A stretch of 64,000 nt of DNA, taken from the NCBI GenBank assembly GCA_964496415.1, contig CAZBZN010000001.1, forward strand, positions 9,819 to 73,818. The letters run 5' to 3'. Position 1 is the stretch's first letter. Every line of letters starts with the position of its first letter. Source of the stretch: Candidatus Micrarchaeota archaeon (GTDB lineage: Archaea > B1Sed10-29 > JAJRYS01). The notes beneath the pieces are model-generated. The model worked only from the letters and a program-made list of their open reading frames with translations. It was not told where the DNA came from and searched no databases. The translations under genes and the position numbers were made by a program. This document shows, piece by piece, positions 9,606 through 63,886 of the stretch.

Positions 9606-10109
9606 TTACCATGGTACTTTTTTTAGTTTTAGTAAATAACCGATGAAATTAACGGTTAAGTGCGCTGCAGGGGTTATTATTAGTAAAAAACAGAACTGGT
9701 TTAGGGTTATTGGTTTTATCAGCATGCCTAAGCATACTGCTCCTATTAAGAAATCAATCTGGTCAAGGATTGGAACTGGCTGACCGCTTTTTACCCCCAC
9801 TTGTCTTTTTAAGAAGCTTCCCGCAAAGTCTCCTAATACTGCTCCAAGAGACAAGAAAAATGCTAAAATAATTAATGAAAAATCTGCTGTAAACGTGGCT
9901 AGTAATGCTCCTGTAAGAGTTCCAAAGAAAATACCGCTTGCTGTTCCTCTTATTGTTTTCCCTTTTCCAAGAATTCTTTTTCCTCTTATTGTTTTTCCGA
10001 AGTCAATGCTTTTTCCTCCTCCGAATAACGCTGCTGAAGAATTACAAATGTACGCTGGGAGGATGTATATTAACGCCTGAACCATTGTTGAGGGATTCAT
10101 TTTTATCAC
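9606..10109 (-). CDS. carS: CDP-archaeol synthase
   Basis: 167 aa, multi-TM. Motifs GKSIDFGKT and GKGKTIRG, and a C-terminal KVPW, match CarS (DUF46) such as A. fulgidus CarS. Confidence 0.85.
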   Translation of the reverse strand: MIKMNPSTMVQALIYILPAYICNSSAALFGGGKSIDFGKTIRGKRILGKGKTIRGTASGIFFGTLTGALLATFTADFSLIILAFFLSLGAVLGDFAGSFLKRQVGVKSGQPVPILDQIDFLIGAVCLGMLIKPITLNQFCFLLIITPAAHLTVNFIGYLLKLKKVPW

Positions 10110-10790
10110 TTATAGTAACGCTCCTACGAGCATTCCTATTATGGCTCCAACTGTTGTTGCTGCAAGGTTTGTTGAGGAATTCCCAATTATTTTTTTATTT
10201 TCAAGTAAAGCTCCGACTAATGAGTCAGTAAGGTTTCCAGCAAGACCTGCTACTATTGCTATTATTATTGCTTTGACACTTGGAAGGATTATTAGAGAAG
10301 AGACACCTATCATTAAAGAAGCTATTACCCCTAATATTGTTCCTGTGAGTGTTACTCCTCCATTTACTCCTGGATTTACTTTTTTGAAGTTTGTTATCAT
10401 TCTTGGAGTTTCTTTTGAAAGAACTCCTAGTTCAGAAGAAGTTGTATCTGCTGTTGCTGTTGCTATTGCGCCGATGAACCCGTAAGTCCCTGCAGGCCCT
10501 CCTAGTAAAGCCATTAGCATTGCTATTCCGCCGTTGGATACTACGTTTCTTGACCCTCTTATCTTTTGCAGTACTTTGAGCTTTCTTTTTTTATCCCATC
10601 CATATCTTGTAACAAGGTTTCCTATTATGAAAAACAAGAACATTATTAAGAACCATTTTATTCCCTGAGTTAACAGAATAATGTATGCTAAGAATAATGC
10701 TGAAAGTGCTCCTGGAAAGTTAAGGGATTTTTTTTCTATTCCAAGCACGACAATAAAAAGAGGAAGAGAGTAAATAGCTAACTCATTCAT
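10110..10790 (-). CDS. DUF92/TIGR00297-family integral membrane protein
   Basis: 226 aa polytopic membrane protein with Gly-rich loops. The family assignment is from memory. Confidence 0.5.
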   Translation of the reverse strand: MNELAIYSLPLFIVVLGIEKKSLNFPGALSALFLAYIILLTQGIKWFLIMFLFFIIGNLVTRYGWDKKRKLKVLQKIRGSRNVVSNGGIAMLMALLGGPAGTYGFIGAIATATADTTSSELGVLSKETPRMITNFKKVNPGVNGGVTLTGTILGVIASLMIGVSSLIILPSVKAIIIAIVAGLAGNLTDSLVGALLENKKIIGNSSTNLAATTVGAIIGMLVGALL

Positions 10791-28567: not shown

Positions 28568-28963
28568 TTATACTCTTCTTCCTCTTTTCCCACCTTTTCT
28601 TCTTGTAGTGTCATGAGGAATAGGAGTGACGTCTTCAATTCTTCCTATTCTAAGCCCGCTTCTTGCAAGAGCTCTAATTGCTGCTTGGGCTCCTTGTCCA
28701 GGAATTTTTGACCTATGACCACCAGGAGCTCTTACATGAATGTGAACTCCTACTACTCCTTTGTTTTTAAGTTCTTCAGCTACTCTTTGAGCAGCCATCA
28801 TTGCAGCGTAAGGTGAACCTTCTTTTCTATCAGCGTCAACCACCATTCCTCCAGAGCATTTTGCCAGAGTTTCTGCTCCTGTCAAATCAGTAACAGTAAT
28901 TATAGTGTTATTCTTTGAAGCATAAATGTGTGCTATTCCCCACAGTTCTTCTTTCATTTTCAT
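28568..28963 (-). CDS. rps11: 30S ribosomal protein S11 (uS11)
   Basis: [19 protein letters not shown]...HVRAPGG. Confidence 0.9.
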
Positions 28964-29601
28964 TCACCTAAATTTTCAGCTGCTTCTTTCAGTTCTTCTT
29001 CCTCTTTTTCAGCGAGTTCCTGTTCTTTTTCCATGATTTCTTTTTCTTCTTCTTTTTCCACTTCTTTTGCAATTACTTCTAATCCTGTTTCCTGCTTTGG
29101 TTCTTCAATTGCTATTTTTAAAGGTTCCTTATACCAGCCAACAGTTTTTTCAGTTTCAAGGTCAATGATCATTGAAGGAGCAGTAGTCTTTATCCCATTG
29201 ACAGCAATATGCCCGTGAGTTATAAATTGTCTTGCTTGTTTTATTGTTCTCGCAAGACCCTTTTTCCATACGATTGTTTGAAGCCTTCTTTTTAACAAGT
29301 CTTCTGTTTTTAATGATAAAACATCATCAAGGCTGCTGTTTTCAGGAAGAATTCCATATCTTTCAAGTTTATTAAGTAAAGCTTTTTCTTTTTCTTCTCT
29401 TTCTTCAGGAGCAAGCCCAACCAGTTCTCTAGCCATGTGCCTGTACTTTCTTATTTGAGTTTTAGCTCTCCAGATTTCTTTTTTGTTTTTTAACCCATAC
29501 TCTTTCATTAGTTTCTTTTCTTCTAAGATTCTTTCTTTCTCCCAAGGATGTGATGGAGGTTCATATTTTTTCTTTAGTCTTCTCGGATCTCCCATTTTCA
29601 A
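28960..29601 (-). CDS. rps4: 30S ribosomal protein S4 (uS4) with acidic C-terminal extension
   Basis: The uS4 core followed by about 55 aa of E/K-rich tail. Confidence 0.9.
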
Positions 29602-39658: not shown

Positions 39659-40053
39659 ACTATGTTTTTTGAAATTGTAGAGATTTTAGGGAATCTTTCA
39701 GCAACTTCTTTTGCTACTACTCCTTTAATTTCAGATGCTTTTGGCTCGTTTTTGTCAGTGATGAGCACGCAAGCATTATCTTCAAATTTTATCCTTTCCC
39801 CACTTGCTCTTCTATATTCTTTTTTTTGCCTTATTAGAACAGCTCTTACTACTTTTTTTCTTAGGTCTTTTTTCCCTTCTATTACTGAACCTATGAGGAT
39901 ATCTCCAACACTTATTGTTGGGAGTCTTCTTCTTCTCCCTTTATAGCCTTCTTTTGCTATTACTCTTATTTTTTTAGCTCCTGAATTATCATCTACTTTT
40001 ACAACAGAGCCTATTGTTACTCCTCCACTCATTTTTGAGCTTACTGCTTTCAT
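39655..40053 (-). CDS. rpl14: 50S ribosomal protein L14 (uL14)
   Basis: [18 protein letters not shown]. Confidence 0.9.
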
Positions 40054-40343
40054 TTTTTCTGCACCTTTTCGATTACTACGAAGCTTTTAGTCTTGCTTAT
40101 TTTTTTACATTCTCCTATTTTTACCTTGTCTCCAACGTTTATTTCCATGCATTCAGGTTTGTGAGCATTAATTCTTGATTTTCTTCTTTCATATCTTTCA
40201 TACTTTGGAACAAAGTGTAAGTATTCTCTTTCAACTACTACTGTGTTTTTTGGTTTGTTACTTACCACTACTCCTTCAAGTATTATTCCCCTTACTTTTA
40301 GATTTCCGTGGATTGGACAGTTTTTGTCTTTGCATTCTTGCAT
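40050..40343 (-). CDS. rps17: 30S ribosomal protein S17 (uS17)
   Basis: [16 protein letters not shown]...VVS. Confidence 0.9.
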
Positions 40344-40611
40344 GGAATTTCCTCCAATATTTTTTTATTCTTTCTTCTGGTCTGAAGAGGATTTCTTCCC
40401 CTTTTATTGTGACTCCTTCAATCATGAACGTGTTGTGTTTTTTGTTTATTTTTTTTATTTCACCGTTTTCCTCTTCTATTATTAACAGTTTCATTGTTTC
40501 GTCGATGATCTTTCCTTCTTTGCCTATAAGGCTTTTGTCAGGGCTTTTTATTACCCTGACTTTTTTTCCTATTAGTTCTCCCATCAAGAGCATTGGTTTT
40601 TTGTTTTTCAT
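40276..40611 (-). CDS. rnp1: RNase P protein component 1 (Rpp29/Pop4)
   Basis: [33 protein letters not shown] Sm-like barrel. The basic C-tail overlaps the S17 start by 68 nt. Confidence 0.75.
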
Positions 40612-40910
40612 ATGACGTCAATTTGATCTTCATGATAGTTCATTTTTAGCATGATTTGTTTTACTTTTTCTTTATGATCCCCTTGAAGGATTATTTTCCC
40701 GTCTTTTGCAGTTCCACCGCATGCGAGTTTCTTTTTTAATTCTTTTGCGAGACTTGAAAGTTCTTTTTGGTTGTCTATCCCTTCAATGGTGGTGTATATT
40801 TTTCCGAACTTTCTTTTTTCAGTTCTTATTTTTATCTTTTGAGTTGTTTTTGAGATTTCTTTGCACACGCAAAGTTCTTTTGGCAGCCCACATACTGGAC
40901 AGATTTCCAT
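40608..40910 (-). CDS. eif1: translation initiation factor 1 (SUI1/aIF1)
   Basis: MEICPVCGLPKELCVC Zn knuckle. ...KKKLACGGT...IILQGDH SUI1 motif. Confidence 0.85.
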   Translation of the reverse strand: MEICPVCGLPKELCVCKEISKTTQKIKIRTEKRKFGKIYTTIEGIDNQKELSSLAKELKKKLACGGTAKDGKIILQGDHKEKVKQIMLKMNYHEDQIDVI

Positions 40911-40913
40911 TTT

Positions 40914-41126
40914 TTAGCTAACACCTCTTTCTTTTTTTATTGTTAGTATCCTTGCTATTGTTTTTCTCATTTCTCTTATTTTTCCAGGGTTTTCTGGTTT
41001 TGCACCGCTTTTTACTGCTGATCTTTCTCTTGCTATTTCTCCTCTTAGTTCTTTTTCTATCTTTTCAAGTTCTTCAGTTGTTTTTTCTCTCAGTTCTTTT
41101 ATTCTGTAAATTGCCATAAGCATCAC
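40914..41126 (-). CDS. rpl29: 50S ribosomal protein L29 (uL29)
   Basis: LREKTTEELEKIEKELRGEI. Confidence 0.9.
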   Translation of the reverse strand: MMLMAIYRIKELREKTTEELEKIEKELRGEIARERSAVKSGAKPENPGKIREMRKTIARILTIKKERGVS

Positions 41127-41968
41127 TTATGCACTCTCTTATGAGCTGAGAGCCCTCTTTTGGAATTAAACTCTTTTCCACAGATCTCACATTTGAACAC
41201 TTGCTTTTTTTCAGTTTCTTCAGCTATCTCTTTTATTACTTCCTTTGCAGTTTCTTTTTCAGGTTTTTCAGGAATCACTTCTTCACTTAGCTCTTTTATT
41301 CCTGTTTCTTTTATTTCTTCAGCTGCTTTCTTTTCTTCAGGAAGCACTGTTGTTTCTTCAGCTATCTCTTCTATGCCTGGTTTTTGAATTTCGATTTTGT
41401 CAGGGAATTTAAGTTCTCTTGGAACAATTCTAACAGTTATCCCAATTACTCCTTGTTTTAGGAAAGCCTGCATTTTTGTTTCTTTTATCTGATTAACAGG
41501 ATCACCTGCTTTTTTCAAATAGCCTCTTGCTACTCTTTCTTTTCTTGATCTTGCTCCTTTACTTTGAGTACCATCAGCTATTATTTCAACACCTATGGCT
41601 CCAGCATCCATTACTCTTTTTGCAGCTTTTTTAATTGCTATTCTTGGTTTTGTTCCTCTTTCAATCATTCTTTTTACCCATCTTGCGATTACTGTTGGTT
41701 CAAGGTCTGGGTTTTGTACTTCAATAACTTCAAGTTGAGGATTTTCTATTCCAAGTTCTTTTTCAAGTCTTTCGTTAAGTTCTTTTATGTTTGACCCTTT
41801 TCTTCCAATTACTAATGCTATTCTTTCAGCTATTATTCCTATTCTTGTTGAGATAGGGGTTCTTTGAATTTCAACGTCAACTATTCCGGCTCTTTCTAAT
41901 TCTTTTTTTATGAATTCCCTTGTCTTAAGTCTTTTTACTGCTTCTTCAACGAATTTTCTTTCAATCAT
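41123..41968 (-). CDS. rps3: 30S ribosomal protein S3 (uS3) with E/K-rich linker and C-terminal C2H2 zinc finger
   Basis: KH domain GRKGSNIKEL and a uS3 C-domain in residues 1-210. Then about 55 aa of acidic repeats. The ORF ends FKCEICGKEFNSKRGLSAHKRVHK (C-x2-C-x12-H-x4-H). Confidence 0.9.
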   Translation of the reverse strand: MIERKFVEEAVKRLKTREFIKKELERAGIVDVEIQRTPISTRIGIIAERIALVIGRKGSNIKELNERLEKELGIENPQLEVIEVQNPDLEPTVIARWVKRMIERGTKPRIAIKKAAKRVMDAGAIGVEIIADGTQSKGARSRKERVARGYLKKAGDPVNQIKETKMQAFLKQGVIGITVRIVPRELKFPDKIEIQKPGIEEIAEETTVLPEEKKAAEEIKETGIKELSEEVIPEKPEKETAKEVIKEIAEETEKKQVFKCEICGKEFNSKRGLSAHKRVHK

Positions 41969-41971
41969 TTT

Positions 41972-42436
41972 TCATACCTCTTTTACTACTATTTCTACAT
42001 TGGCTAGTTCAATGTTATGCATCATTCCACTAGTGTATGAAAATCCTCCTCTTGAGCCTGTCTTTGGTTTTACTCTTTCAAGGGTTATTGTCTTGTAAGC
42101 AGTAGCATGAATTATTTTGAGTTTTTCAGTGTCAAGACCCTTTTGTTCAGCATTGTTTTTAGCATTTTCAAGTATTTTTTTAATTATTTTTGCTGCTTTT
42201 ACAGGATATCCTCCTGGAATTCCTCCTTTTCTATGTGCTATGCCTGTATTATATCTTCTGTAAGGAACGAATTCTTTTCTTTGCATTACTTTTTCAAGGT
42301 ATTCTATTGCTTTGTTTAGTTTCATGTTTTTTATAGTGTAACAAATCTCATTGCATTTTTTCCATGATACATTAAGGTCTTTTCCTAATGCTCTTGCTGT
42401 TTTTTCTAAGTCACCTTGGTATGAGTATCCTTTCAT
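41972..42436 (-). CDS. rpl22: 50S ribosomal protein L22 (uL22)
   Basis: VSWKKCNEICYTIKNMKLNKA. Confidence 0.9.
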   Translation of the reverse strand: MKGYSYQGDLEKTARALGKDLNVSWKKCNEICYTIKNMKLNKAIEYLEKVMQRKEFVPYRRYNTGIAHRKGGIPGGYPVKAAKIIKKILENAKNNAEQKGLDTEKLKIIHATAYKTITLERVKPKTGSRGGFSYTSGMMHNIELANVEIVVKEV

Positions 42437-63801: not shown

Positions 63802-63886
63802 TGCAGGGGAAGGGATTTGAACCCTCGTAGGCACTAAGCCACAGGATCTTAAGTCCTGCCCGTTTTCCAGGCTCCGGCACCCCTGC
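63802..63886 (-). tRNA. tRNA-Leu(TAA), intron-less
   Basis: Minus strand: GCAGGGG-TG-CCGG-AGCCTGGAAAA-ACGG-G-CAGGA-CTTAAGA-TCCTG-TGGCTTAGTGCCTAC-GAGGG-TTCAAAT-CCCTT-CCCCTGC-A. Class II cloverleaf. Confidence 0.8.

What the first reader, a model, noticed from the sequence alone, without database searches (positions are those of the whole stretch)
41123..41968. Ribosomal protein S3 fused to an acidic low-complexity linker and a C-terminal C2H2 zinc finger
After the conserved uS3 KH and C-domains (to about residue 210) the ORF continues through roughly 55 residues of E/K/I repeats. It ends with FKCEICGKEFNSKRGLSAHKRVHK, a textbook C2H2 finger (C-x2-C-x12-H-x4-H). I have not seen this architecture described for archaeal uS3, whose C-terminus sits at the mRNA entry channel. 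A nucleic-acid-binding finger there could contact mRNA or rRNA, or it could moonlight as a DNA-binding module, as eukaryotic uS3 does. uS4 (28960-29601) likewise carries a ~55-aa acidic tail, suggesting lineage-specific elaboration of the proteins lining the mRNA entry site.
Basis: seen in the sequence. Interest (0 to 1): 0.55.

Follow-up and report, generated by a model that had tools for sequence, protein, structure and literature searches.

The report
Ribosomal protein uS3 carrying a zinc finger
A small archaeon (probably Micrarchaeota) has a real, conserved zinc finger tethered to ribosomal protein uS3, and because relatives carry the same finger on the neighbouring protein uS4, it most likely works where mRNA enters the ribosome.

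Summary
Window 41123-41968 (-) is one uninterrupted 281-aa ORF. It holds a bona fide archaeal uS3 core (residues 1-~196), a 60-residue acidic linker predicted to be disordered, and a terminal classical C2H2 finger. It is not an artefact: two other assemblies give identical DNA. Eight further 90%-identity cluster representatives (52-63% identical) and one fragment keep the finger with all four zinc ligands invariant.

New here:
- The same finger family (FK[ST]x[RK]GL..H) sits at the C-terminus of uS4 in related archaea.
- It was either/or in the three genomes I could check.
- A nested sister clade has a K/T-rich basic tail in its place.
- 31 Aenigmarchaeota uS3 representatives carry a related finger on a much shorter linker.
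- Two other archaeal uS3 proteins carry a helix-hairpin-helix domain instead.

uS3 and uS4 ring the incoming mRNA. I therefore read the finger as a tethered, non-sequence-specific nucleic-acid (probably RNA) binder at the mRNA entrance. An extraribosomal DNA-binding role for uS3 looks unlikely. I found no description in the literature searched. Zinc binding, ligand and position on the ribosome are untested.

The parts
41123..41968 (-). Complete uS3 gene (281 codons plus TGA stop)
   Evidence: ORF list and sequence. NCBIfam PRK04191 201 bits, TIGR01008 184 bits. Identical protein and identical tail DNA in assemblies ENA ERZ27248007 and Logan SRR35108318.
41381..41968 (-). uS3 core, residues 1-196 (KH type-2 domain 16-88 = 41705-41923; S3 C-terminal domain 99-181 = 41426-41674)
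   Evidence: Pfam KH_2 55.1 bits and Ribosomal_S3_C 47.1 bits. AlphaFold pLDDT above 90 up to about residue 190. Aligns to Pyrococcus uS3 6sw9_Z (210 aa) over residues 2-203.
41201..41380 (-). Linker, residues 197-256: acidic (net -10), E/K/I-rich, predicted disordered
   Evidence: Composition. AlphaFold pLDDT about 46-53 with no regular secondary structure. Pairwise identity among finger-bearing homologues is 0.43 against 0.67 for the core, and length varies 58-81 residues.
41126..41200 (-). C-terminal classical C2H2 zinc finger, residues 257-281 (ligands C260, C263, H276, H280; motif at 41129-41191)
   Evidence: Pfam zf-C2H2 and zf-C2H2_4. Motif coordinates. Beta-beta-alpha fold with pLDDT about 94. 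Ligands and hydrophobic core invariant in 8 sequences. Pairwise identity 0.63, close to the core's 0.67.
40914..41123 (-). uL29 gene directly downstream; its ATG overlaps the uS3 stop codon (TGATG)
   Evidence: Sequence. Called genes in L008 place uS3 at 1858-2703 and uL29 at 2703-2912. Pfam Ribosomal_L29. In relatives uL29 follows between 8 nt of overlap and a 25-nt gap. The finger is therefore encoded inside the conserved operon.
41972..42436 (-). uL22 gene directly upstream (operon context uL2-uS19-uL22-uS3-uL29-aIF1)
   Evidence: Pfam Ribosomal_L22; gene order in L008 and L009.
28960..29595 (-). uS4 gene (211 aa from the ATG) with an acidic C-terminal tail of about 50 residues (28963-29118) and no finger in this genome
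   Evidence: Pfam S4 and Ribosomal_S4; translation; tail composition. Related genomes carry the same finger family at this position of uS4.

Best explanation
**What it is.** This is a genuine, inherited domain fusion. A normal archaeal uS3 is extended by a flexible, mostly acidic, disordered tether of about 60 residues. The tether ends in one classical zinc-binding beta-beta-alpha C2H2 finger with net charge about +5.

**How it most likely works.** The finger belongs to a family found in DPANN archaea that is attached to either uS3 or uS4. These two proteins, together with uS5, ring the mRNA as it enters the small subunit. I propose the finger is a ribosome-tethered, non-sequence-specific nucleic-acid binder acting at the solvent-side mouth of the mRNA entry channel. 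There it gives an extra hold on incoming mRNA, or on neighbouring rRNA. A lysine-rich tail or a helix-hairpin-helix domain would do the same job in related lineages.

**Shown:**
- the ORF is continuous and the sequence is reproducible;
- the domain make-up and the predicted fold;
- conservation of the finger;
- its placement on uS3 or uS4, one or the other;
- its replacement by basic tails in a related clade.

**Inferred:** zinc binding, incorporation of the tail into ribosomes, the site of action, and the ligand.
For: **Real and reproducible.** The identical protein and tail DNA appear in two other assemblies. The gene sits between uL22 and uL29 with a stop/start overlap.

**Under selection.** Eight further 90%-identity cluster representatives, 52-63% identical, and one fragment keep the finger. 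In the alignment of eight sequences all four ligands and the F/L core are invariant. Finger identity (0.63) is close to that of the core (0.67) and well above the linker (0.43), whose length varies.

**Fold.** AlphaFold predicts beta-beta-alpha with pLDDT about 94 after a disordered linker. An Aenigmarchaeota counterpart gives the same fold at pLDDT about 85.

**Site of action.**
- Ten uS4 cluster representatives from related archaea end in the same finger.
- uS3-versus-uS4 finger identity is 0.61. That equals the within-group values (0.66, 0.67) and exceeds identity to Krueppel-type fingers (0.43-0.46).
- The window genome has the finger on uS3 only. So, judged by matching contig length, does the JAJRYS01 contig.
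- The 568-kb JGI contig has it on uS4 only; its uS3 is 239 aa with no finger.

**Generic nucleic-acid binding.**
- A clade with 300/300 bootstrap support, nested among the finger forms, keeps the linker but ends in a K/T-rich basic tail.
- Two other archaeal uS3 proteins end in a helix-hairpin-helix domain (HHH_5, 56.6 bits in P0322; precomputed HhH Pfam hits for P0338).
- 31 Aenigmarchaeota uS3 representatives carry a related finger only 16-63 residues from the core. Linkers that short limit its reach to the neighbourhood of uS3.
- Across the three groups the linker charge runs from -22 to +10. The finger, not the acidic linker, is the constant element.
Against: - Nothing here shows zinc binding, RNA binding, or that the tail is present on assembled ribosomes.
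- The isolated finger matches DNA-binding Krueppel-type fingers best. It falls below the gathering score of the dsRNA-binding zf-C2H2_jaz model (21.0 vs 22.6).
- C2H2 fingers can also mediate protein-protein contacts.
- The strongly acidic 60-residue tether in this genome should be repelled by rRNA. It could hold the finger away from the ribosome surface.
- The either/or pattern rests on three genomes only.
- The K-tail clade has no finger on either protein, so the finger is dispensable.
Confidence: 0.45

Rival explanations
1. Structural docking module. The finger folds back onto a fixed site on the small-subunit head or beak (rRNA or a neighbouring protein). It acts as a built-in extra ribosomal protein, stabilising the reduced DPANN ribosome rather than touching mRNA.
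For: - The finger is conserved while linker sequence and length drift, as expected for a tether to a fixed site.
- In Saccharolobus a small zinc-binding protein, aS34, sits against h33, uS3 and uS14 at the position of eukaryotic eS10 (PMC11698992). Small zinc modules therefore do dock next to uS3.
- Both uS3 and uS4 C-termini could reach one shared site.
Against: - A specific docking site is hard to reconcile with replacement of the finger by a low-complexity K/T-rich tail or by a helix-hairpin-helix domain.
- Linkers up to 90 residues are far longer than docking near the anchor would need.
- AlphaFold gives no contact between the finger and the core, though a monomer model cannot show rRNA contacts.
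Confidence: 0.25
2. Transcription-translation coupling. The finger on its long tether reaches from the mRNA entrance to the DNA or the RNA polymerase just ahead of the leading ribosome. It helps keep the two machines together.
For: - The finger is of the classical DNA-binding type by sequence.
- It is anchored at the mRNA entrance. From my own knowledge of bacterial expressome structures, which I did not read or check here, that is where RNA polymerase meets the small subunit.
- The tether of 67-90 residues in the Micrarchaeota uS3 forms is long and acidic, suited to reaching a partner off the ribosome surface.
Against: - A single finger without flanking basic segments binds DNA weakly.
- The usual base-contact positions are S/T, G and A/T/I/L.
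- Aenigmarchaeota linkers are as short as 16 residues.
- No polymerase or Spt5 feature was found to co-vary, and I did not test for one.
Confidence: 0.1
3. Extraribosomal moonlighting. Free uS3 uses the finger to bind DNA as a regulator or repair factor, by analogy with eukaryotic uS3.
For: Eukaryotic uS3 has documented DNA-related activities outside the ribosome (abstract of PMC5397187, listed). The finger resembles DNA-binding fingers.
Against: - The same finger sits on uS4 instead of uS3 in a sister lineage. The carrier is therefore interchangeable and the shared feature is the ribosomal location.
- A nested clade replaced the finger with a lysine-rich tail.
- The finger is always single.
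- The eukaryotic activities reside in the uS3 core, not in an added domain.
Confidence: 0.05
4. Artefact or selectively neutral appendage. Either two ORFs were joined by an assembly or sequencing error, or the tail is a harmless low-complexity extension with a chance C2H2 pattern.
For: - C-terminal K/E-rich tails of very variable length are common in DPANN uS3.
- A loose C2H2 pattern occurs once more in the window by chance.
- The Pfam score in the full protein is only just above threshold.
Against: - The DNA is identical in independent assemblies.
- The ORF is continuous in every homologue.
- Ligands and core residues are invariant at 56-64% overall identity to the window protein.
- The finger is as conserved as the uS3 core.
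- The fold is confidently predicted.
- About 50 cluster representatives in three settings keep it.
Confidence: 0.03

Closest known systems
Archaeal/eukaryotic-type ribosomal protein uS3 (TIGR01008, PRK04191; e.g. Pyrococcus abyssi uS3, PDB 6sw9 chain Z, 210 aa)
   Same: KH type-2 domain plus S3 C-terminal domain. Equivalog-level score. Same operon position between uL22 and uL29. Aligns over residues 2-203.
   Different: Most solved archaeal uS3 chains are 186-229 aa and end near the window protein's residue 205. One matched chain of unidentified source (9o17, 318 aa) is longer. The window protein has about 76 further residues: a disordered acidic linker and a C2H2 finger.
Classical (TFIIIA/Krueppel-type) C2H2 zinc finger, Pfam PF00096
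   Same: Exact consensus F-x-C-x2-C-x3-F-x5-L-x2-H-x3-H, including the CGK turn. Passes the Pfam gathering score. Predicted beta-beta-alpha fold. Best matches among solved chains are ZNF568, Aart and the 1MEY consensus finger.
   Different: It is a single finger rather than a tandem array, with no TGEKP linker. It is attached to a ribosomal protein in an archaeon. It has its own signature, FK[ST]x[RK]GL..H, with an invariant glycine at helix position +3.
uS4-C2H2 and Aenigmarchaeota uS3-C2H2 fusions
   Same: Same finger family, tethered to the C-terminus of a protein at the mRNA entrance, and encoded inside the ribosomal operons.
   Different: The carrier protein is uS4, or the linker is short (16-63 residues), the spacing is H-x4-H and further tail follows the finger (Aenigmarchaeota). 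Most of these score below the Pfam gathering score. That may explain why the architecture is not annotated.
Zinc-binding ribosomal proteins and the archaeal protein aS34 next to uS3
   Same: Small zinc-stabilised modules are common on ribosomes. aS34 binds h33, uS3 and uS14 near the entry side (PMC11698992).
   Different: From general knowledge, those are Cys4-type ribbons or knuckles and are separate proteins. Here it is a C2H2 beta-beta-alpha finger covalently tethered by a long disordered linker.
Eukaryotic uS3 C-terminal tail
   Same: It is a C-terminal extension beyond the conserved core. It is reported to contact mRNA 3' of the A site and the entry-channel latch (PMC6868437).
   Different: There is no sequence similarity. 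Alignments to eukaryotic uS3 stop at window residues about 182-219. The eukaryotic tail is short and has no zinc finger.
Archaeal and archaeal-virus C2H2 proteins (e.g. AFV1p06)
   Same: They show that C2H2 fingers exist outside eukaryotes and can bind nucleic acid as single fingers (PMC3541406).
   Different: AFV1p06 is a free viral DNA-binding protein in which a glutamate replaces the fourth ligand. It is not part of a ribosomal protein.

Membership tests
Ribosomal protein uS3, archaeal/eukaryotic type | KH type-2 domain followed by the S3 C-terminal domain | tested here: met
   Pfam KH_2 55.1 bits (residues 16-88) and Ribosomal_S3_C 47.1 bits (99-181), both above their cutoffs.
Ribosomal protein uS3, archaeal/eukaryotic type | Full-length equivalog model score above the curated cutoff | tested here: met
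   PRK04191 201.1 bits vs 147; TIGR01008 183.7 bits vs 150.25. The bacterial model TIGR01009 scores 69.5 bits, below its cutoff of 114.5.
Ribosomal protein uS3, archaeal/eukaryotic type | Position in the conserved operon between uL22 and uL29 | tested here: met
   Gene order uL23-uL2-uS19-uL22-uS3-uL29-aIF1 in the window and in L008/L009.
Ribosomal protein uS3, archaeal/eukaryotic type | Incorporated in the 30S head at the mRNA entry channel | not testable with these tools
   Needs a ribosome structure or proteomics from this organism.
Classical C2H2 zinc finger (PF00096) | Ligand spacing C-x2-4-C-x12-H-x3-5-H with conserved aromatic and Leu core residues | tested here: met
   F-K-C-E-I-C-G-K-E-F-N-S-K-R-G-L-S-A-H-K-R-V-H. 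C260, C263, F267, L273, H276 and H280 are invariant in 8 sequences.
Classical C2H2 zinc finger (PF00096) | Pfam gathering score | tested here: met
   25.6 vs 25.2 bits in the full protein (marginal); 32.2 bits for the isolated finger.
Classical C2H2 zinc finger (PF00096) | Beta-beta-alpha fold | tested here: met
   AlphaFold gives strands at 258-259 and 266-267, a helix at 270-280, and pLDDT about 94. This is a prediction only.
Classical C2H2 zinc finger (PF00096) | Binds one zinc ion | not testable with these tools
   Needs metal analysis of recombinant protein.
Classical C2H2 zinc finger (PF00096) | Sequence-specific dsDNA recognition through helix positions -1, 3 and 6, usually in tandem arrays | tested here: not met
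   It is a single finger. Positions -1, 3 and 6 are S/T, G and A/T/I/L across the family. Binding itself was not tested.
dsRNA-binding U1-like/JAZ C2H2 fingers (PF12171, PF12874) | Family model score and a longer inter-histidine spacing | tested here: inconclusive
   For the isolated finger, zf-C2H2_jaz scores 21.0 against a cutoff of 22.6, and zf-met scores 21.9 against 21.2. The H-x3-H spacing is the classical one. One uS4 finger (P0400) passes zf-C2H2_jaz at 23.4 bits.
Eukaryotic uS3 C-terminal extension | Sequence similarity of the tail to eukaryotic uS3 tails | tested here: not met
   phmmer alignments to eukaryotic uS3 chains end at window residues 182-219.

The most novel reading that the evidence does not exclude
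A C2H2 finger specific to DPANN archaea is a mobile ribosomal accessory module. It has moved between the genes for uS3 and uS4 and can be swapped for lysine-rich or helix-hairpin-helix tails. It equips the mRNA entrance of these reduced ribosomes with a tethered arm that captures or holds nucleic acid: mRNA, or the DNA/polymerase ahead of the ribosome. This would be the first C2H2 finger known as an integral part of a universal ribosomal protein. It would be a prokaryotic example of this fold working in translation rather than transcription.
Probability: 0.3. Interest if true: 0.8.

Novelty: new variant of a known kind. Interest (0 to 1): 0.62.

Why it matters
Ribosomal proteins uS3 and uS4 are universal and highly conserved. 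C2H2 fingers are described as almost exclusively eukaryotic (PMC3541406). A conserved C2H2 finger on either protein, in at least two DPANN phyla, would mean that the mRNA entrance has been remodelled repeatedly in these small-genome, host-dependent archaea. A 2026 preprint reports a DPANN-specific uS5 insertion at the same channel, which fits that picture.

The finding gives a concrete, testable object for asking how reduced ribosomes recruit or hold mRNA. It is also a natural 'Rosetta stone' fusion: any free-standing homologue of this finger would become a candidate new ribosome-associated protein. On the practical side, most of the Aenigmarchaeota and uS4 fingers tested score below Pfam thresholds, so the architecture is invisible to routine annotation.

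Tried and rejected
1. **Assembly chimera or missed stop.** Rejected. The DNA is identical in ENA and Logan assemblies, and the ORF is continuous in all homologues.
2. **Linker as a tandem repeat.** Rejected. TRF finds nothing relevant, and the alignment of the two halves is no better than shuffles (88/500).
3. **A motif shared by the uS3 linker and the uS4 tail in this genome.** Rejected. z = 0.7 in the window, -0.1 and 1.6 in two other genomes. Only one related contig shows a truly shared segment (z = 17.9).
4. **A solved structure of a long uS3 as precedent.** PDB 9p8h chain SD (454 aa) is just the mammalian-type uS3 sequence twice in one record. 9o17 (318 aa) was not pursued.
5. **Other C2H2 genes in the window as a source of the finger.** None found. 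None in the related loci either, apart from uS3 and uS4.
6. **Literature.** Five searches found no description of uS3 or uS4 zinc-finger fusions. The one paper containing all of 'ribosomal protein S3', 'C2H2' and 'DPANN' uses them in unrelated passages.
7. **Monophyly of the finger-bearing uS3.** Not supported (29/300 bootstraps). Support for the alternative topology is only moderate, so gain-and-loss history remains open.
8. **Searching with the finger alone** for free-standing homologues. Not attempted, because eukaryotic multi-finger proteins already swamp the profile search.
9. **Taxon names via cluster look-up.** This added nothing beyond 'archaeon' and 'Aenigmatarchaeota'.
Full report

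Window 41123-41968 on the minus strand is a single 281-codon ORF with no internal stop.
- NCBIfam identifies it as 30S ribosomal protein S3 of the archaeal/eukaryotic type (PRK04191, 201 bits vs cutoff 147; TIGR01008, 184 bits).
- Pfam places a KH type-2 domain at residues 16-88 and the S3 C-terminal domain at 99-181.
- Pfam also places a C2H2 zinc finger at 258-280. It scores 25.6 bits against a gathering score of 25.2 in the full protein, and 32.2 bits when the 24-residue finger is scanned alone.
- The stretch between, residues 197-256, has 20 Glu, 10 Lys and 7 Ile out of 60 and a net charge of -10.

The finger is C-x2-C-x12-H-x3-H, not H-x4-H. The linker is low-complexity but not repetitive.

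**2. Is it an artefact or chance?**

No. The exact 281-aa protein occurs on contigs from two other assemblies, ENA ERZ27248007 and Logan SRR35108318. Their DNA over the linker, finger and junction with the next gene is 100% identical to the window.

The gene lies in the usual operon, uL2-uS19-uL22-uS3-uL29-aIF1. Its TGA stop overlaps the ATG of uL29 (TGATG). In relatives uL29 follows between 8 nt of overlap and a 25-nt gap.

A loose C2H2 regular expression does hit one antisense ORF elsewhere in the window, so the pattern alone proves little. The following results do carry weight:
- Eight other 90%-identity cluster representatives, 52-63% identical to the window protein, and one fragment end in the same finger.
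- In these proteins the two ligand cysteines are the only cysteines; one protein has a third.
- In an alignment of eight of them, K259, C260, C263, G264, F267, G272, L273, H276 and H280 are invariant.
- Mean pairwise identity is 0.67 in the core, 0.63 in the finger and 0.43 in the linker. Linker length varies from 58 to 81 residues.
- AlphaFold2, run on a 95-sequence alignment, gives pLDDT above 90 for the core up to about residue 190. It gives about 50 with no regular structure for 195-255, and about 94 for a beta-beta-alpha finger at 258-280.

**3. Who has it?**

Nearest relatives in the GTDB genome set are labelled 'Candidatus Micrarchaeota archaeon' or just 'archaeon'. The window is 34-40% G+C. 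I take the organism to be a member of the Micrarchaeota (DPANN), by similarity only.

Relatives fall into three types:
- linker plus finger, as in the window;
- the same linker (…EEVKPTKAEEKTTKEALKEVAE…) followed by a K/T-rich basic tail instead of the finger;
- shorter tails of mixed charge.

In a bootstrapped neighbour-joining tree of the core, the K-tail forms are one clade (300/300). The long-linker group as a whole has 181/300. Monophyly of the finger forms gets only 29/300. This suggests, without proving, that the finger is ancestral to the long-linker group and was replaced once by a basic tail.

**4. A second and a third home for the finger**

*Aenigmarchaeota uS3.* An exhaustive profile search of 1.8 billion representatives returned two more distant uS3 proteins with a finger in the tail. 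Following one of them up showed 31 Aenigmarchaeota uS3 cluster representatives with CPYCGKVYDKERSLKIHIGQKH or close variants. The spacing is H-x4-H. The finger lies 16-63 residues from the core, and 6-100 further residues follow it. These fingers score below Pfam's threshold (15-22 bits). AlphaFold nevertheless predicts a beta-beta-alpha fold with pLDDT about 85. One subgroup (CPECGREFGSKRGLSIHMSQKH) is strikingly like the window finger.

Ten related uS4 cluster representatives end in the same kind of finger, for example KCPECGRVFKSKRGLKIHMRVHK. Their Pfam zf-C2H2 scores are 18-30 bits, and four of the eight tested pass the gathering score. These genes sit in the uS13-uS4-uS11-RpoD operon and overlap the uS11 start.

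*One family.* Finger identity between the uS3 and uS4 groups is 0.61. That equals the within-group values (0.66, 0.67) and is well above identity to 17 Krueppel-type fingers (0.43-0.46). Both groups share FK[ST]x[RK]GL..H with glycine at helix position +3. I read this as one finger family.

**5. Either uS3 or uS4**

| Genome | uS3 | uS4 |
|---|---|---|
| Window | finger | acidic tail, no finger |
| JAJRYS01 (uS3 and uS4 paired by matching contig length, 23,181 bp) | finger | acidic tail, no finger |
| JGI1358J11329_10000001 (568 kb) | 239 aa, no finger | finger |
| CAZXTN01 (K-tail clade; paired by matching contig length, 239,374 bp) | no finger | no finger |

On the 568-kb contig the two genes are about 21 kb apart. 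That uS3 core is 84% identical to P0018, a member of the short-tailed clade that is sister to the long-linker group.

On one related contig (Ga0114934_10000056) the uS3 and uS4 tails share a nearly identical 55-residue segment (z = 17.9 against shuffles). This is direct evidence that tail segments can be copied between the two genes. No such similarity exists in the window genome (z = 0.7).

Among the 34 ORFs of the window's ribosomal cluster, only uS3 and uS4 have long acidic tails.

**6. What it most likely does**

uS3 sits on the solvent side of the head at the mRNA entry channel. uS3, uS4 and uS5 are described as forming a ring around incoming mRNA that serves the ribosome's helicase activity. 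The eukaryotic uS3 C-terminal tail is reported to contact mRNA 3' of the A site (PMC6868437).

Four observations bear on function:
- The carrier of the finger can be either uS3 or uS4.
- Some linkers are as short as 16-30 residues.
- The finger can be replaced by a lysine-rich tail.
- In two other archaeal uS3 proteins the C-terminus carries a helix-hairpin-helix domain: HHH_5 at 56.6 bits in P0322, and precomputed HhH Pfam hits for P0338.

The simplest reading is a tethered, non-sequence-specific nucleic-acid binder working at the mouth of the entry channel. This fits the finger's own features. It is single and has net charge +2 to +5. The basic residues in the CGK turn and between the histidines are kept. 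Small or hydrophobic residues occupy the classical base-reading positions.

Linker charge varies from -22 to +10 across the three groups. The acidic character seen in this genome is therefore not the conserved feature.

I put this model at about 0.45. Everything beyond anatomy and distribution is inference. That covers zinc binding, presence on ribosomes, position and ligand.

**7. Rivals**

- *Fixed docking site on the head or beak (about 0.25).* This is plausible because a separate zinc protein, aS34, binds next to uS3 in Saccharolobus (PMC11698992). It is harder to square with replacement by low-complexity basic tails.
- *Contact with DNA or RNA polymerase for transcription-translation coupling (about 0.1).* This suits the DNA-type finger and the long tether. 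Nothing further here supports it.
The uS3/uS4 interchange weakens it.
- *Artefact or neutral appendage.* Effectively excluded.

**8. Comparison with what is known**

The core is an ordinary archaeal uS3. Most solved archaeal uS3 chains are 186-229 aa and end about where the window's linker begins; one matched chain of unidentified source is 318 aa.

The finger meets the sequence and predicted-fold criteria of the classical C2H2 family. It does not look like a tandem-array DNA reader. It is borderline for the dsRNA-binding C2H2 subfamilies.

From general knowledge, zinc modules on ribosomal proteins are common but are Cys4 ribbons or knuckles. C2H2 fingers are known in archaea and their viruses as free DNA-binding proteins (PMC3541406).

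Five literature searches found no description of a C2H2 finger on uS3 or uS4. [quoted passage not shown] Remodelling of this site in DPANN has thus been noticed for uS5, but not for uS3 or uS4.

**9. Verdict**

It is a new variant of a known kind: a universal ribosomal protein with an added domain. It belongs to a pattern, in which a finger alternates between uS3 and uS4 and related lineages carry alternative basic modules. That pattern points to function at the mRNA entrance. Interest is moderate to high. It is surprising to a ribosome specialist and directly testable, but the mechanism rests on inference.

Noticed in passing
Related proteins P0365, P0374, P0376, P0378, P0379, P0384, P0387, P0390, P0400, P0407; loci L010-L014 (uS4 at about 10001-10690, or 8609-9244 in L014): uS4 of related DPANN archaea ends in the same C2H2 finger family as the window uS3. 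The gene lies inside the uS13-uS4-uS11-RpoD operon. The window's own uS4 (28960-29595) has only an acidic tail.
   Followed up: yes
P0183, P0242-P0272, P0174 (Aenigmarchaeota uS3): 31 cluster representatives of Aenigmarchaeota uS3 carry a related finger (CPYCGKVYDKERSLKIHIGQKH, H-x4-H) on a short linker, followed by more tail. The four scanned with Pfam score below the Pfam threshold, so they are not annotated as zinc fingers.
   Followed up: yes
P0322 (292 aa) and P0338 (289 aa), uS3 from unnamed metagenome contigs: These uS3 proteins carry a C-terminal helix-hairpin-helix domain (HHH_5, 56.6 bits in P0322; precomputed HhH Pfam hits for P0338) after a K/E-rich linker. This is another nucleic-acid-binding module at the same position. 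The lineage was not determined.
   Followed up: partly
P0013 (uS3) and P0382 (uS4), both on contig Ga0114934_10000056 (L015): The tails of uS3 and uS4 in one genome share a nearly identical 55-residue segment (GIKEVAEEIKPT.AEEKTTKKALKETAEKIIEKKEDKKTKPKKKTTSKK; z = 17.9 against shuffles). This suggests recent copying between the two genes. An assembly error was not excluded.
   Followed up: partly
P0174, P0267, P0268, P0270-P0273 (Aenigmarchaeota uS3): A further conserved C-terminal module of about 45 residues (…AQLLEGNV.DVKKKIEDARRPD..LL..EKEGKNRKGVV.YLE…) has no Pfam match in the two of these proteins that I scanned (P0267, P0273). It occurs with or without the finger.
   Followed up: no
window 40276-40343 (-): The RNase P subunit Rpp29 ORF (40276-40611) and the uS17 ORF (40050-40343) overlap by 68 nt. 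In the identical ENA contig the Rpp29 gene was not called. In relative L003 the two genes overlap by only 4 nt.
   Followed up: no
L012 9282-9989: uS13 of this uS4-finger genome is 235 aa, with an N-terminal extension of about 75 residues compared with the window's 161-aa uS13.
   Followed up: no
window 40608-40910 (-): aIF1/SUI1 lies between uL29 and Rpp29 and begins with a cysteine cluster (CPVCGLPKELCVC), a probable small zinc knuckle. It is the only other obvious metal-binding motif near uS3.
   Followed up: no
window 63802-63886 (-): This is the only Rfam match in the 64-kb window, a tRNA. There is no rRNA in the window, so the organism could not be placed by 16S.
   Followed up: no
PDB entry 9p8h chain SD: The deposited '40S ribosomal protein S3' sequence of 454 aa is a mammalian-type uS3 sequence present twice in tandem. 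It is an oddity of the record, not a long uS3.
   Followed up: yes
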